A DNA stretch of 64,000 nucleotides, taken from the NCBI GenBank assembly GCA_017676145.1, contig GCA_017676145.1_3628.1. One strand, written 5' to 3'. The position numbers and the translations under genes were made by a program. Numbering within the stretch: the stretch's first letter is position 1; the number at the start of each line of letters is the position of its first letter. The DNA comes from a phage. Under the pieces are notes generated by a model that did no database searches, was not told where the DNA came from, and worked only from the letters and a program-made list of their open reading frames with translations. Positions 55,852-58,942 of this stretch are shown here, in pieces.

Positions 55852-56835
55852 ATGATGACAAAGTTAACTCTTGAGCAAATTTTAACACTGAAGCAACAGG
55901 GATACACTAATAGACAAATTGCTCGTGAATTTTTAGGTCGTGAGTCACGTGAGAGCTGGATCCGGCTACAGCTTAAACGTGCACAAGAGAATATGTCAGA
56001 GATTGTAGGAGAGGCAACGGAGCGCTTCCTTGAAGAACACAAAGGTGCTAAAGTTTGGGTGTATGATACAGAAACATCCCCAACAAACGGCTGGTTCTTT
56101 GGGCATTATAAGACCAACATTCAAACCTGCGGTATTGAAATTATGCCCTATATGCTAACTTTCGCAGGTAAATGGTTAGACAGCCCTAGCGTGGTTGACT
56201 GTGCTCTCCCTGATTACAAAATGTGGGGCGAGGATATCCACAACGATCTTGAGCTGATTCAAGATTTGTGGTATTATTTGGATAAATGTGATGTCGCAGT
56301 AGCACACAACTCTGGTTTTGACTGTGGGTGGGCCAACCAACGATTTGCATTTCACGGTTTGCCGCCAACAAGCCCCTACAAAGAGGTTGACACCCTCAAG
56401 ATGATTAAAAAGGCATTCCGTTTGAATGCAAACACGTTAGAGTATGCATGTAAATACTTCCAACTGGCCCGACAGAAACTAATTGACCACACATTTGAAA
56501 TGTGGATCAAGTGCGTTCATGGTGATCTTGAGGCGTTTAAACAGATGCGGGAGTATAATGTTGGGGACATCTTGTCTCTGGAAGGCCTGTATTTGCTGGC
56601 GCGTCCGTTTGCTAAGCAGCACCCCAACATGTCGTTGTACTACCAAGATGAGGAGTCAAAAGTTCGTTGCCCACGTTGTGGTGGAGAACACCTTCACGAG
56701 GAAGAGGCTTTGGCGTATACTCAACTGAGTGCATTTAAAACCTACCGCTGCGAAGGTTGTGGATCTGTTGTTCGTGATCGTAACAACATCCGTACCCGAG
56801 AAGAGATGAAAAACACCCTGATTCAGATAATCTGA
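55852..56835 (+). CDS. DEDDh 3'-5' exonuclease with N-terminal helix-turn-helix and C-terminal zinc ribbon
   Basis: Exo I VWVYDTETS, Exo II VAHNSGFD; N-terminal LTLEQILTLKQQGYTNRQIAREFL; C-terminal CPRCGG...CEGCG. Confidence 0.6.
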   Translation: MMTKLTLEQILTLKQQGYTNRQIAREFLGRESRESWIRLQLKRAQENMSEIVGEATERFLEEHKGAKVWVYDTETSPTNGWFFGHYKTNIQTCGIEIMPYMLTFAGKWLDSPSVVDCALPDYKMWGEDIHNDLELIQDLWYYLDKCDVAVAHNSGFDCGWANQRFAFHGLPPTSPYKEVDTLKMIKKAFRLNANTLEYACKYFQLARQKLIDHTFEMWIKCVHGDLEAFKQMREYNVGDILSLEGLYLLARPFAKQHPNMSLYYQDEESKVRCPRCGGEHLHEEEALAYTQLSAFKTYRCEGCGSVVRDRNNIRTREEMKNTLIQII

Positions 56836-56843
56836 CAAGTAGA

Positions 56844-56872
56844 GGGAGGCTTGCGCCTCCCCTTTTCATTTT
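56844..56872 (+). terminator. rho-independent terminator
   Basis: GGGAGGC-TTGC-GCCTCCC hairpin followed by CTTTTCATTTT. Confidence 0.6.
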
Positions 56873-56881
56873 GGAGGCACC

Positions 56882-57688
56882 TTGAGCAAGAAAGAGTCCA
56901 ACGACAAATATTACACAGACCCTGAGTATGCAGAATATCTTGTTGGTAAAGTAAAAGCTAGGTATGGGAATTGTGCATACGTTGAGCCTTCTGCTGGAAA
57001 GGGTTCTTTTTCAAAACTATTTTCAGAGATACTGTCGTACGATTTGGTACCAGATCCTGAATTTGAAGGCCCAACACCGTGTATTAAGGCAAACTTCTTA
57101 GAGGTGTACCCTAAGGCTGATGTCTTCATAGGTAATCCTCCATTCGGCAAAAATTCGTCTTTAGCTTGCAAGTTCTTTAACCACTGTGCATCATTGCTAG
57201 AGCCTGGCGGGGCTATAGCCTTCATCTTGCCACGGACATTTGAAAAAATATTTTTTGCAAACAAGCTGGACATGTCAATGCACCTTATCTACAGCGAAAG
57301 GTGCCCCAAGAACTCGTTTTTACTTAACGACAAACCTTATGACGTGCCATGTGTTTTCCAAATTTGGGAGAAAAAGGTGTGCAATAGGGATCCTGTAGAG
57401 ATTGGAGAGAATAAGCTATTTTCTTTTAGCACACCGGATGACTACGACTTCTGCATAAGACGTGTTGGATATAATGCTGGAAAAGTATTGGGAGATGATG
57501 ACCCAAAATCTGAAGAATCAACATATTTCATAAAATCTTTAGTTGATGGTGTTGACAGAGTGTTTGCTGAATGCTATTCTTCTTTTCAAGAAGAAGCAGG
57601 TAAGACTGCTGGAATGAAGAGTATAGGCAAGAAAGAACTACAATACATTTTGGAGACTAGGTATGATCAAAAGTATAGACTTGACTAA
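56882..57688 (+). CDS. DNA N6-adenine methyltransferase (putative)
   Basis: TTG start after GGAGG; AdoMet motif VEPSAGKGSF and catalytic NPPF motif FIGNPPFG. Confidence 0.6.
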   Translation: MSKKESNDKYYTDPEYAEYLVGKVKARYGNCAYVEPSAGKGSFSKLFSEILSYDLVPDPEFEGPTPCIKANFLEVYPKADVFIGNPPFGKNSSLACKFFNHCASLLEPGGAIAFILPRTFEKIFFANKLDMSMHLIYSERCPKNSFLLNDKPYDVPCVFQIWEKKVCNRDPVEIGENKLFSFSTPDDYDFCIRRVGYNAGKVLGDDDPKSEESTYFIKSLVDGVDRVFAECYSSFQEEAGKTAGMKSIGKKELQYILETRYDQKYRLD

Positions 57689-58121
57689 AGAGCTTACTGA
57701 TGCAAAAGCTTTTGGTGAGACAGCCGTGCAAAGGGGGCAGGCTATGGGGCTGGCACTACCTTTTGTCTTAAAAGAGCATTTTACAGATTTTCAGCTTATC
57801 CGGGGCGAAAAGGGAATGCTTATTCTGGAACATAAGCTGAGTAAGAAACGTTATAAAGTTGTTTTTAATTCTAAAGCTCCAACAAAACTTGGATTCAGAA
57901 CTTACAATCTCAACCCTTCTTATACTAAGGGTGTTGGAAGAGTGGAGCAGCAGCATCTCAGTGCTAGAGCTTCTTTGGCCCCTTTGATGCTAAATTTCTC
58001 AGGCGTGGCTTTGGGATACCTGGATAAGAAAAGAGTTCTTCATGTTCGTTTTACAGACTTTGTAACGCTTTTAGCTAACAACGAAGTAGATGAAAAGGGA
58101 CGTGTAAAAACAAACTTCTAA
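57663..58121 (+). CDS. hypothetical protein overlapping methyltransferase 3' end
   Basis: 152 aa ORF; no motif recognised. Confidence 0.3.
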   Translation: MIKSIDLTKELTDAKAFGETAVQRGQAMGLALPFVLKEHFTDFQLIRGEKGMLILEHKLSKKRYKVVFNSKAPTKLGFRTYNLNPSYTKGVGRVEQQHLSARASLAPLMLNFSGVALGYLDKKRVLHVRFTDFVTLLANNEVDEKGRVKTNF

Positions 58122-58136
58122 TAACGTGCAGTATGA

Positions 58137-58340
58137 TTGGAGACCGCAATGACACCAGAGTTAACAATTCCAGACAGCTTTTCAGAAAGCTTTATCCCAG
58201 AAATGATGAATAAGATGCGATCATTGCTTGATCAGATTGAGGAGGCTGTTTGGGAAGACGATGCCGTAGTAGCTAACGAACTGGTAGATAAGTGTAAAAG
58301 TATTATTGATGCAGTTGAAGAATACCACGGAGGTTTTTAA
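58137..58340 (+). CDS. hypothetical small acidic protein
   Basis: 67 aa ORF. Confidence 0.3.
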   Translation: METAMTPELTIPDSFSESFIPEMMNKMRSLLDQIEEAVWEDDAVVANELVDKCKSIIDAVEEYHGGF

Positions 58341-58942
58341 TGGATATTATTGTTCTTAATGCTCCACCAAGTTCTGGAAAAGACCATATCGCAGATCTTT
58401 TGTTGGAAGCCATTCCAAACTCGCATCACCGCGAGGTAAAGGAAATGCTATTCAGTGTGGCAATTAAGGCAGCTGGTATTTCACCACAGTTGTGGAATGC
58501 ACTCTATGATCGCCGCTACAAAGAAGAACCGTGCCCGTTCTTAATGATAGACGGCAAGCATGTTTCTCCGCGAGAATGGATGATCCATTGTAGTGAAAAT
58601 CTGATCAAACCTATCTTTGGTGAAGATGCTTTCGGTAAGGCCGCAGTCGCATCCTTGAAGAAAGATTTCCCTGAAGGTAAAGGGGTTGTTGTTTACTCCG
58701 ATGGTGGCTTCAAAGAGGAGCTGGCATGCCTTGGCGAGTACGCATCCATCACAGGTGGCGATCTTCTACTGTTCCGTATCCACCGTGCAGGATATGATTG
58801 GGGAAATGATTCCAGAACTTACCTTAGCCTAGAGAAGAACGGGATAAAAGGTATTGAGTTTGATGTTGTTAACCCCGAGGGAGCTCCTTGGGAGTGCGCA
58901 TCTGAGATTGTGTGCAAGTATATTGATGCTAAAGAGGGCTGA
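58340..58942 (+). CDS. deoxynucleoside monophosphate kinase (T4 gp1-like)
   Basis: N-terminus MDIIVLNAPPSSGKDHIADLL parallels T4 gp1 LIFLSGVKRSGKDTTADFI. Confidence 0.55.
   Translation: MDIIVLNAPPSSGKDHIADLLLEAIPNSHHREVKEMLFSVAIKAAGISPQLWNALYDRRYKEEPCPFLMIDGKHVSPREWMIHCSENLIKPIFGEDAFGKAAVASLKKDFPEGKGVVVYSDGGFKEELACLGEYASITGGDLLLFRIHRAGYDWGNDSRTYLSLEKNGIKGIEFDVVNPEGAPWECASEIVCKYIDAKEG

What the first reader, a model, noticed from the sequence alone, without database searches (positions are those of the whole stretch)
56882..58340. Adenine methyltransferase with two small overlapping downstream ORFs of unknown function
The NPPF-motif methyltransferase begins at a TTG codon just after a strong terminator and overlaps by 26 nt a 152 aa ORF with no recognisable motifs, followed by a 67 aa acidic ORF. 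The unit could be an orphan anti-restriction methylase with accessory specificity or anti-defence factors.
Basis: inference. Interest (0 to 1): 0.35.

Follow-up and report, generated by a model that had tools for sequence, protein, structure and literature searches.

The report
Phage-borne GTAC restriction-modification-like gene pair
The methyltransferase is not an orphan: the 152 aa ORF overlapping it is a very diverged relative of the RsaI (GTAC) restriction enzyme family, and phages carrying this pair have lost many or all GTAC sites, so the two genes look like a virus-carried restriction-modification cassette that no annotation records.

Summary
The window is an FV3/rV5-like Escherichia phage (Vequintavirus). 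All three ORFs are real and under purifying selection.

- **Methyltransferase (56882-57688):** a gamma-class, M.TaqI-like N6-adenine DNA methyltransferase.
- **152 aa ORF ("X", 57663-58121):** it has no hit in Pfam, NCBIfam or PADLOC. A confident AlphaFold model and a profile-profile comparison link it to the RsaI-like type II restriction enzyme family.
- **Pairing:** X and the methyltransferase are adjacent or overlapping in at least six diverged phage lineages, in either gene order. Both genes are missing together from the same site in relatives. In bacteria, the same methyltransferase family sits directly upstream of restriction enzyme genes, including RsaI-like ones.
- **GTAC depletion, predicted from the RsaI link before counting:** GTAC is the most depleted of all 4-mers in the sampled X-bearing phages, third of 134 in one (observed/expected 0.15-0.51). 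It is absent (0 of about 90 expected) in a lineage that keeps X but has no methyltransferase in the 19-20 kb read. It is near baseline (0.74-0.79) in three X-less relatives.
- **Caveat:** the putative D...(E/D)xK catalytic residues of RsaI-like proteins are not conserved in X, so cleavage itself is unproven.
- **63 aa acidic ORF:** a separate core gene, not part of the pair.

All evidence is computational.

The parts
56844..56871 (+). Intrinsic-terminator-like hairpin (7 bp stem, 6 G-C pairs, 4 nt loop) plus T-rich tail. It lies between the DnaQ-like exonuclease gene and the methyltransferase.
56873..56877 (+). Shine-Dalgarno GGAGG for the TTG start of the methyltransferase.
56882..57688 (+). 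Gene M: a 268 aa gamma-class N6-adenine DNA methyltransferase with a TTG start. Motif X is YYTDP, motif I is EPSAGKGSF (nt 56984-57010) and motif IV is NPPF (nt 57134-57145). The small C-terminal domain (about residues 170-268) has no close match among solved structures.
   Evidence: PADLOC MTase_II PDLC03255 E 1e-32 over the full length; alignment to M.TaqI; AlphaFold pLDDT 91.6 with top PDB matches TrmN, M.TaqI, M.BseCI, CamA and a type I M subunit; 798 homologues
57552..57580 (+). Sigma-70-like site TTGACA-17-TATTCT (with TG) inside the 3' end of M, 83 nt upstream of the X start. This is a consensus match only, and such sites are no commoner here than in shuffled sequence.
57663..58121 (+). 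Gene X: 152 aa, basic (pI 10), a remote homologue of the RsaI-like type II restriction endonuclease family. It overlaps M by 26 nt. The conserved loop PSYTKGVGR is at nt 57915-57941.
   Evidence: AlphaFold pLDDT 85.9, pTM 0.80; Foldseek against BFVD hits 'R.RsaI endonuclease' of phage Syn19 with E 4e-4, TM 0.66; hhalign against the RsaI-like family gives 89% probability, E 2e-6; that family matches PADLOC REase_II PDLC03550
58149..58340 (+). ORF63: a 63 aa acidic protein (phrog_7393). It is not part of the M+X cassette, and its stop overlaps the ATG of the dNMP kinase gene (58340-58942).

Best explanation
M (56882-57688) and X (57663-58121) form a two-gene, restriction-modification-type cassette carried by a virulent phage. 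The proposed mechanism has four steps, marked by how well each is supported.

1. **M (homology shown; specificity inferred).** M is a gamma-class N6-adenine DNA methyltransferase. I infer that it methylates the A of GTAC in phage DNA.
2. **X (homology shown; function inferred).** X is a highly diverged member of the RsaI-like restriction enzyme fold. I infer that it recognises unmethylated GTAC and damages that DNA, most likely by cutting it.
3. **Self-protection (pattern shown; cause inferred).** The phage escapes X through M and by shedding GTAC sites. A related lineage keeps X, has no M homologue in the 19-20 kb read, and has no GTAC sites at all there.
4. **Purpose (inferred).** The target would be the GTAC-rich host chromosome, about 2.8 sites per kb in E. 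coli K-12, and/or co-infecting phages. That would feed the neighbouring nucleotide-salvage and replication genes. It follows the logic of host-DNA degradation by chlorella-virus restriction enzymes or by the T4 endonucleases that attack cytosine-containing DNA.

The small acidic ORF63 is an unrelated conserved gene, translationally coupled to the dNMP kinase gene.
For: **1. Fold and homology of X.**
- The model is confident (pLDDT 85.9, pTM 0.80).
- The best annotated match among predicted viral structures, outside X's own family, is 'R.RsaI endonuclease' of cyanophage Syn19 (E 4e-4, probability 1.0, TM 0.66 over 152 columns).
- hhalign of the X family against three RsaI-like proteins gives 89% probability, E 2e-6, over 102 columns.
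- The two families share a G(Q/R) motif and the loop PSxxxGxGR.
- The RsaI-like proteins match PADLOC REase_II model PDLC03550 at 1e-7 to 1e-15.
- The weak top PDB matches of X are all nuclease folds of the PD-(D/E)XK type.
- The RsaI family was assigned to PD-(D/E)XK by Orlowski and Bujnicki, at their lowest reliability (PMC2441816).

**2. Linkage of M and X.**
- They are adjacent or overlapping in Vequintavirus (order M then X), and in the order X then M in Phapecoctavirus, Klebsiella phage 05F01, Vibrio phage IBT_VpB-34 and four kinds of metagenomic contig.
- Sequence identity falls to about 30% for X and about 40% for M across these lineages.
- Both genes are absent together from the syntenic site in PVP-SE1. 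Both are also absent from phages muut and Citrobacter Tr1.

**3. Bacterial context of the M family.** In 80 bacterial loci, the gene directly downstream, usually overlapping by about 16 nt, is:
- a 210 aa protein matching PADLOC REase_II model PDLC03460 in 21 loci;
- an RsaI-like gene in 3 loci.

**4. GTAC depletion, predicted from the RsaI link before counting.** Values are observed/expected under a second-order Markov model, ranked among all strand-symmetrised 4-mers with at least 5 expected.

| Sequence | X | M | Observed/expected | Rank |
|---|---|---|---|---|
| Window | yes | yes | 107/208 = 0.51 | 1 of 136 |
| phAPEC8 | yes | yes | 0.30 | 1 of 136 |
| Klebsiella 05F01 | yes | yes | 0.46 | 1 of 136 |
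| Vibrio IBT_VpB-34 | yes | yes | 0.15 | 1 of 136 |
| Metagenome L008 | yes | yes | 0.22 | 3 of 134 |
| Metagenome L021 | yes | none found | 0/90 | 1 of 136 |
| Metagenome L022 | yes | none found | 0/81 | 1 of 136 |
| PVP-SE1 | no | no | 0.79 | 6 of 136 |
| muut | no | no | 0.78 | 12 of 136 |
| Citrobacter Tr1 | no | no | 0.74 | 7 of 136 |
| E. coli K-12 (50 kb) | - | - | 0.90 | 35 of 136 |

- Phage muut was isolated on the same host, E. coli K-12 MG1655, as X-bearing phages.

**5. Other points.**
- GTm6AC methylation blocks R.RsaI (PMC4357717).
- X is basic, pI 10.
- M and X are under purifying selection.
Against: - **Catalytic residues.** In the joint alignment, RsaI-like proteins have a likely catalytic D on strand 2 ('YD') and (E/D)x(K/R) on strand 3 ('YEVK'). 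X has a hydrophobic residue and 'YKVV' at those positions.
- **No invariant acidic residue in X.** None is invariant across the 13 X sequences. D43 and E/Q56-x-K58 are the only candidates for a relocated active site.
- **Libraries.** No restriction-enzyme HMM detects X directly.
- **Untested biochemistry.** GTAC specificity of M and of X has not been measured.
- **M family specificity varies.** The M homologue of phage GAP32 (37% identical) sits in DNA where GTAC is over-represented (1.41). The family is therefore not uniformly GTAC-specific.
- **Weak bacterial signal.** GTAC depletion in bacterial loci carrying the M family is mild (0.70-0.75), except in the RsaI-like class (0.39).
- **Incomplete genome.** Only 19-20 kb of the X-only phage genome was read.
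- **Alternative cause.** Host GTAC-specific restriction could contribute to the depletion.
- **No experiments.** Nothing shows host-DNA degradation or GTAC methylation in these phages.
Confidence: 0.62

Rival explanations
1. X is a nuclease-dead RsaI-fold protein that still reads GTAC. It could bind unmethylated GTAC to block host DNA, recruit another phage nuclease to it, or shield or poison a host GTAC-specific restriction enzyme. M marks phage DNA so that X ignores it.
For: - The canonical D...(E/D)xK positions of RsaI-like proteins are replaced in X. The residues X shares with them are Q26 (aligned with R of their DGR motif) and the loop P85-S86-x3-G90-x2-R93, which look like recognition elements rather than catalytic ones.
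- That loop is flexible in the model, with pLDDT below 50.
- The GTAC depletion and the M linkage are explained equally well.
Against: - Complete removal of GTAC from the lineage without M argues that contact between X and its own DNA is severely harmful. That is easier to explain by cleavage.
- D43, E56 and K58 form an E...(P/T)D...ExK-like pattern on the neighbouring hairpin in the enterobacterial-phage branch.
- A shielding role would be useless in a genome with no GTAC sites, yet X is intact there in 12 contigs.
Confidence: 0.2
2. One reading: M is an orphan anti-restriction methyltransferase that protects phage DNA from host enzymes. X and ORF63 are unrelated accessory or anti-defence factors, and the GTAC depletion comes from host GTAC-specific restriction systems.
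For: - Phage-encoded solitary methyltransferases are common (general knowledge).
- Mild GTAC under-representation of about 0.75-0.8 is present even in X-less relatives.
- 55 of 80 bacterial loci with this M family show no recognised restriction-enzyme neighbour.
Against: - X is a homologue of a restriction enzyme family.
- M and X are gained and lost together.
- X persists without M only where GTAC is absent.
- X-less phages from the same host and source are not strongly depleted.
- Hosts range from E. coli to Vibrio, so a shared host GTAC restriction system is unlikely.
- Vequintavirinae are highly sensitive to restriction-modification systems.
- ORF63 is present where M and X are absent.
Confidence: 0.1
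3. The adjacency of M and X is inherited synteny inside a replication and nucleotide-metabolism module. X is a replication accessory protein with no link to methylation or to GTAC.
For: - X always lies among replication or nucleotide genes, between the primase-helicase and PolA genes or near the ribonucleotide reductase and thymidylate synthase genes.
- The phage groups concerned are related to each other.
Against: - The gene order is inverted between lineages while adjacency and overlap are kept.
- The flanking genes differ between lineages.
- This view does not explain the RsaI-like fold, the GTAC signal, or the bacterial operons that pair this methyltransferase family with restriction enzyme genes.
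Confidence: 0.05

Closest known systems
RsaI restriction-modification system (GT^AC; Rhodobacter sphaeroides) and the RsaI-like restriction enzyme family (PADLOC REase_II PDLC03550)
   Same: - X shares the small single-domain fold of about 150-170 aa and the PSxxxGxGR loop.
- The gene overlaps a DNA adenine methyltransferase gene.
- Carrier genomes are depleted in GTAC.
   Different: - Identity is only about 16-20%.
- X is not found by the family HMM.
- The putative D...(E/D)xK positions are not conserved in X.
- I could not obtain the authentic R.RsaI or M.RsaI sequences. The link rests on the depositor's name for Syn19_153 and on the PADLOC model.
Syn19_153 / Syn19_154 of cyanophage Syn19 ('R.RsaI endonuclease' plus a methyltransferase)
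   Same: It is a virulent myovirus with an RsaI-like gene overlapping a methyltransferase gene by 28 nt. Its GTAC observed/expected ratio is 0.47.
   Different: - Its methyltransferase is a beta-class N6_N4_Mtase (PF01555), unrelated to M here.
- Its RsaI-like protein keeps the canonical motif.
Chlorella-virus type II restriction-modification systems, for example R.CviQI/M.CviQI (G^TAC) of NY-2A
   Same: These are virus-encoded restriction enzyme and adenine methyltransferase pairs, thought to degrade host DNA while viral DNA is methylated (my own knowledge). M.CviQI gives protection at GTAC (PMC4357717).
   Different: They come from a eukaryotic algal virus. No sequence relationship to X was tested, and Orlowski and Bujnicki list CviQI as a separate family of unknown fold.
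M.TaqI and other gamma-class N6-adenine DNA methyltransferases
   Same: M has the same motif order (X, I, IV with NPPF) and the same catalytic-domain fold.
   Different: M is much smaller (268 aa against 421 aa). Its compact C-terminal domain has no close match among solved structures.
Phage T4 host-DNA endonucleases (denA, denB) with hydroxymethylcytosine self-protection
   Same: The logic is the same: a DNA modification separates phage DNA from host DNA, so a phage nuclease can destroy the host chromosome (my own knowledge).
   Different: The chemistry and the proteins are different, and T4 does not depend on a specific recognition site.

Membership tests
Type II restriction-modification system | A DNA methyltransferase with SAM-binding and catalytic motifs | tested here: met
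   EPSAGKGSF and NPPF are present. PADLOC MTase_II gives E 1e-32 over the full length. The fold matches M.TaqI, M.BseCI and CamA.
Type II restriction-modification system | An adjacent gene that encodes a restriction endonuclease | tested here: inconclusive
   X is a remote homologue of the RsaI-like restriction enzyme family by structure and by profile comparison. No restriction-enzyme HMM hits it directly.
Type II restriction-modification system | Conserved nuclease catalytic residues in the restriction component | tested here: not met
   The D and (E/D)x(K/R) positions of RsaI-like proteins are hydrophobic and 'K-V-V' in X. No acidic residue is invariant in the X family. D43 and E/Q56-x-K58 are only candidates.
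Type II restriction-modification system | The two genes are inherited as a unit | tested here: met
   They are adjacent or overlapping in at least six lineages, in both gene orders. Both are absent together from PVP-SE1, muut and Tr1. The single exception is the X-only lineage, whose DNA has no GTAC.
Type II restriction-modification system | Cleavage at a defined site, blocked by the cognate methylation | not testable with these tools
   This needs biochemistry or methylome data. No published data were found.
Type II restriction-modification system | The carrier genome avoids the recognition site | tested here: met
   GTAC is the most depleted 4-mer in most X-bearing phages (observed/expected 0.15-0.51). 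It is 0 in the X-only lineage and 0.74-0.79 in X-less relatives.
RsaI-like restriction endonuclease family | A match to the family profile (PADLOC PDLC03550) | tested here: not met
   X, P0132 and P0126 give no hit at E up to 10, while Syn19_153, L097 and L108 hit at 1e-7 to 1e-15.
RsaI-like restriction endonuclease family | Shared fold and family-specific motifs | tested here: met
   TM-score 0.66; hhalign 89% probability, E 2e-6; shared G(Q/R) and PSxxxGxGR motifs.
Gamma-class N6-adenine DNA methyltransferase | Motif order X (YYTxP), then I (ExxxGxG), then IV (NPPF/Y), with the target-recognition domain at the C-terminus | tested here: met
   The alignment to M.TaqI covers motifs X, I, IV and the motif V/VI region. 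All are invariant across 17 homologues.
Orphan anti-restriction phage methyltransferase | No cognate nuclease gene, and methylation gives broad protection from host restriction | tested here: not met
   A restriction-enzyme homologue overlaps the gene. Published plating data show Vequintavirinae are highly sensitive to restriction-modification systems.

The most novel reading that the evidence does not exclude
Widespread virulent coliphages of the rV5-like and phAPEC8-like groups, and their relatives in Klebsiella, Vibrio and marine samples, use a restriction-modification-derived cassette as an offensive weapon. X would be an RsaI-fold protein with a relocated or non-canonical active site, or a nuclease-dead GTAC reader that recruits other nucleases, and it would target unmethylated GTAC in host or rival DNA. 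One lineage has replaced methylation with complete removal of GTAC from its genome, a natural transition from a modification-based to a sequence-based form of self-immunity.
Probability: 0.3. Interest if true: 0.8.

Novelty: new variant of a known kind. Interest (0 to 1): 0.62.

Why it matters
- **A hidden function in well-used phages.** rV5-like and phAPEC8-like phages are common in sewage isolates, in the BASEL reference collection and in therapeutic cocktails. The X gene is labelled 'hypothetical' in nearly every record seen, or mislabelled as a methyltransferase, and PHROGs lists its family as unknown.
- **An explanation for a genome feature.** If M and X are a GTAC-specific restriction-modification-type cassette, that explains a strong and previously unremarked GTAC deficit in these genomes.
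- **A candidate host-takeover mechanism.** The cassette gives a possible route for host-DNA destruction or for excluding rival phages.
- **A natural experiment.** Lineages carrying both genes, X alone or neither show how self-protection can move from methylation to loss of the target site.
- **Practical points.** The proposal predicts that phage DNA resists RsaI. It also predicts that X would be toxic if cloned without M.

Tried and rejected
- **Standard HMM libraries on X (Pfam, NCBIfam, PADLOC):** no hits.
- **Sequence searches with X:** the word-indexed search and the exhaustive HMMER search found only 5 clusters. An alignment query raised this to 14, all from phages or metagenomes.
- **PDB fold search with X:** nothing significant, only weak nuclease-fold hits.
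- **The search for related loci:** it failed with the X alignment because no stretch was conserved enough. With the Phapecoctavirus X it found one locus.
- **TRMT112-like activator idea for X:** rejected. The idea came from the NPPF motif resemblance to METTL5. There was no structural match, and M has the YYTxP motif typical of DNA methyltransferases.
- **X as a controller (C) protein:** rejected, because it has no helix-turn-helix.
- **PabI 'half-pipe' fold (another GTAC enzyme):** rejected, because it did not appear among the PDB matches.
- **The 210 aa bacterial neighbour family as a relative of X:** rejected (hhalign E 0.28).
- **An HsdS-like specificity subunit as the usual partner of M:** seen in only one locus, and it joined the neighbour cluster by chance linkage.
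- **Pfam PF26055:** it is listed by precomputation on many M homologues, but it could not be named or reproduced with the Pfam copy at hand.
- **Literature:** no data were found on rV5-like or FV3 methylation, RsaI digestion or GTAC avoidance.
- **A scripting error:** my first codon comparison used a wrong coordinate offset. It was redone with the annotated coordinates.
Full report
**Identity of the window and check of the observation**

The region 56500-58700 is 99.1% identical to Escherichia phage FV3 (Vequintavirus, rV5-like). It is 90-99% identical to 121 phage records.

- **Agreement with the public record.** The three ORFs match FV3_00094 to FV3_00096.
- **Upstream context.** A terminator-like hairpin at 56844-56861 with a T-rich tail follows the DnaQ-like exonuclease gene.
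- **Methyltransferase start.** GGAGG precedes the TTG at 56882. The TTG start and the MSK... N-terminus are shared with the Phapecoctavirus homologue.
- **152 aa ORF.** It starts at 57663 and overlaps the methyltransferase by 26 nt.
- **Third ORF.** It most likely starts at the ATG at 58149 (63 aa) rather than the TTG at 58137. It is acidic, pI 4.05.
- **Real genes.** Against phage EduardKellenberger, pN/pS is 0.05, 0.07 and 0.06 for the three genes.

**The methyltransferase (M)**

M is a gamma-class N6-adenine DNA methyltransferase.

- **Motifs.** It has the N-terminal YYTDP motif, then EPSAGKGSF, then GNPPFG. It aligns with M.TaqI across these motifs.
- **Family match.** PADLOC model MTase_II PDLC03255 matches the full length at E 1e-32. 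Pfam gives only a sub-threshold Eco57I hit.
- **Structure.** An AlphaFold model from 17 homologues has pLDDT 91.6. Its Rossmann domain matches TrmN, M.TaqI, M.BseCI, CamA and a type I M subunit. The C-terminal 100 residues have no close solved counterpart.
- **Family size.** 798 proteins match at E up to 1e-5.

**The 152 aa protein (X)**

X belongs to phrog_9938, function unknown. It has no Pfam, NCBIfam or PADLOC hit.

- **A small, phage-restricted family.** An exhaustive HMMER search of 1.84 billion representatives found five clusters. A profile search found 14 proteins of 131-152 aa, plus fragments.
- **Structure.** A model built on 13 homologues is confident (pLDDT 85.9, pTM 0.80). It has a helical N-terminal part followed by a mixed sheet. 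The most conserved segment, P85-S86-x-x-K89-G90-x-x-R93, is a flexible loop.
- **PDB search.** Nothing was significant. The three best weak hits were Cas4 SSO0001, a phage Hjc resolvase and a splicing endonuclease, all nuclease folds of the PD-(D/E)XK type.
- **Viral structure search.** Beyond X's own family, the best annotated hit was E3SQB8, 'R.RsaI endonuclease' of Synechococcus phage Syn19 (E 4e-4, probability 1.0, TM 0.66, rmsd 3.5 over 152 columns).
- **The Syn19 gene.** Syn19_153 overlaps a methyltransferase gene by 28 nt. That methyltransferase is a beta-class enzyme unrelated to M.
- **Profile comparison.** The X family against Syn19_153 plus two bacterial relatives gives 89% probability, E 2e-6, over 102 columns. 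A joint alignment is coherent end to end and shares G(Q/R) and PSxxxGxGR.
- **Independent confirmation of the RsaI-like group.** Those proteins match PADLOC REase_II PDLC03550 at 1e-7 to 1e-15.
- **Published fold assignment.** Orlowski and Bujnicki placed the RsaI family in the PD-(D/E)XK superfamily, at their lowest reliability.

**Linkage of M and X**

| Lineage | Arrangement |
|---|---|
| Vequintavirus (this window) | M then X, 26 nt overlap |
| Phapecoctavirus (Mt1B1_P17, phAPEC8) | X (31% identical) directly upstream of M (53% identical), between the primase-helicase and PolA genes |
| Klebsiella phage 05F01 | X then M, with M intact but badly annotated |
| Vibrio phage IBT_VpB-34 | X then M, overlapping |
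| TARA marine contigs | X then M, overlapping |
| Two short metagenomic contigs | X then M, overlapping |
| A 146 kb metagenomic contig | X then M, overlapping |
| Salmonella phage PVP-SE1 | Syntenic stretch runs exonuclease, 61 aa ORF, dNMP kinase; M and X are both missing |
| Justusliebigvirus muut, Citrobacter phage Tr1 | Neither gene between primase-helicase and PolA |

- The 61 aa ORF in PVP-SE1 is a homologue of ORF63 (E 5e-6).
- In the phage collection, X hits 186 records. The close M hits cover essentially the same Vequintavirus and Phapecoctavirus records.
- M and X are therefore a two-gene cassette, and ORF63 is not part of it.

**Bacterial context of the M family**

A scan of one genome per bacterial species returned 80 loci, many from Sphingomonas, Erythrobacter and Paracoccaceae.

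- In 21 loci, the gene directly downstream, typically overlapping by 16 nt, is a 210 aa protein matching PADLOC REase_II PDLC03460.
- In three loci (L097, L108, and a frameshifted copy in L093) it is an RsaI-like gene. The L097 copy is also picked up weakly by the X profile (E 0.002).
- The M family is therefore a regular restriction-modification methyltransferase, and it does pair with RsaI-like enzymes.

**The GTAC test**

R.RsaI recognises GTAC, and GTm6AC blocks it (PMC4357717). Having formed the RsaI hypothesis, I then counted 4-mers against a second-order Markov expectation. The full table of observed/expected values and ranks is in the evidence for the best explanation. The main results are these.

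- **X-bearing phages.** GTAC is the most depleted of all 136 strand-symmetrised 4-mers in the window (107/208 = 0.51, z about -7), phAPEC8 (0.30), Klebsiella 05F01 (0.46) and Vibrio IBT_VpB-34 (0.15). It ranks third of 134 in metagenome L008 (0.22).
- **X-less controls.** The ratio is 0.79 in PVP-SE1, 0.78 in muut and 0.74 in Tr1. It is 0.90 in 50 kb of E. coli K-12, which carries 2.8 sites per kb.
- **Same host, different result.** Phage muut was isolated on E. coli K-12 MG1655, the same host as several X-bearing phages. The X-bearing lineages infect hosts from E. coli to Vibrio. A cause inside the phage is therefore more economical than a shared host restriction system.
- **The X-only lineage.** In one metagenomic lineage, an unrelated 112 aa ORF follows X, and no M homologue occurs in 19-20 kb. 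That lineage has no GTAC at all: 0 of 90 and 0 of 81 expected, and 0 in seven further, shorter contigs.
- **What the X-only lineage shows.** X is kept intact without M only where its presumed target is absent from the phage's own DNA.

**Interpretation**

The simplest reading is a restriction-modification-type cassette. M methylates GTAC. X attacks unmethylated GTAC. The phage pays a residual cost per site, which explains the graded depletion, ending in total loss of sites and then of M.

The genes sit among nucleotide-salvage and replication genes: dNMP kinase, a 5'-nucleotidase-like HAD protein, ThyX, ribonucleotide reductase and exonucleases. X is also basic. Both points fit a role in breaking down host DNA or excluding competitors. 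That role is inference, by analogy with chlorella-virus restriction enzymes and the T4 endonucleases (my own knowledge).

A site-specific methyltransferase is also consistent with the reported high sensitivity of Vequintavirinae to other restriction-modification systems.

**Main weakness**

- **Missing canonical residues.** RsaI-like proteins have 'YD' on strand 2 and 'Y(E/D)x(K/R)' on strand 3. X has a hydrophobic residue and 'Y-K-V-V' at those positions. No acidic residue is invariant across the X family.
- **A possible relocated site.** In the enterobacterial-phage branch, E38, D43 and E56-H57-K58 give an E...D...ExK-like pattern one hairpin earlier, where they could lie close together. This is unproven. 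Marine members have Q-D-K there instead.
- **Consequence.** X may be an active enzyme with a shifted site, or a nuclease-dead GTAC reader. I cannot decide between these with the tools available.
- **Specificity of M.** It is inferred, not measured. The GAP32 homologue (37% identical), which has an HNH-motif neighbour, lies in GTAC-rich DNA.

**Verdict**

- **Observation:** confirmed.
partly supported. The gene is a methyltransferase, but it is not an orphan, and ORF63 is not part of the unit.
- **Classification:** a new, highly diverged variant of a known kind of system, a type II restriction-modification pair with an RsaI-like enzyme. It sits in an unusual carrier, virulent myoviruses, and is supported by an unusually clear genomic signature.
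- **Limits:** everything rests on computation.

Noticed in passing
window 56500-58700, compared with GenBank MG0656xx records: About 20 records named 'Campylobacter phage' (host given as C. jejuni) are 90-95% identical to rV5-like E. coli phages across this region. They are probably mislabelled or come from contaminated preparations.
   Followed up: no
window 57663-58121, compared with records APECc02, ime, nomine, naam, nom and others: Several GenBank records label the X ORF itself 'putative DNA N6-adenine methyltransferase'. This looks like annotation carried over from the overlapping gene.
   Followed up: no
L014-L016 (Syn19), L020 (muut), L110 (Citrobacter Tr1), L113 (Vibrio IBT_VpB-34): Other 4-mers are also strongly depleted in these phages. 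Syn19 has CCGG 0/117, GGCC 0.20 and AGCT 0.28. Phage muut has CATG 0.36. Tr1 has AATT 0.13. The Vibrio phage has CCGG 0.26. Each may point to another restriction pressure or another phage-borne system.
   Followed up: no
L111 7001-8835 (Cronobacter phage GAP32): A 37%-identical homologue of M is followed by a 304 aa ORF with an HNH-type motif (GAP32_520). In the surrounding 15 kb, GCGC is absent (0/13) and GTAC is over-represented (1.41). This may be a different methyltransferase and nuclease pair with a different specificity.
   Followed up: partly
window 57552-57580: A sigma-70-like site, TTGACA-17-TATTCT with an upstream TG, lies inside the 3' end of M, 83 nt before the X start. It could give X its own transcription. 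It is a consensus match only.
   Followed up: no
window 58149-58942: The stop codon of ORF63 overlaps the ATG of the dNMP kinase gene (TAATG). ORF63 is conserved in PVP-SE1 (gp128), which lacks M and X. This suggests a small acidic partner or regulator of the nucleotide kinase module.
   Followed up: partly
L030-L109 (bacterial loci): A 210 aa family with the motifs HGKxFE...DRFD...TSIKS...NPKIDSKNQRRLQCS sits directly downstream of the M-family gene in 21 bacterial genomes. It matches PADLOC REase_II PDLC03460 but has no Pfam or NCBIfam model. The many Sphingomonas loci carry the methyltransferase without a recognised nuclease neighbour.
   Followed up: partly
L019 20430-21192 (Klebsiella phage 05F01): The M homologue is intact in one reading frame, but the record splits it into a 34 aa ORF and a 200 aa 'DNA methyltransferase'.
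   Followed up: yes
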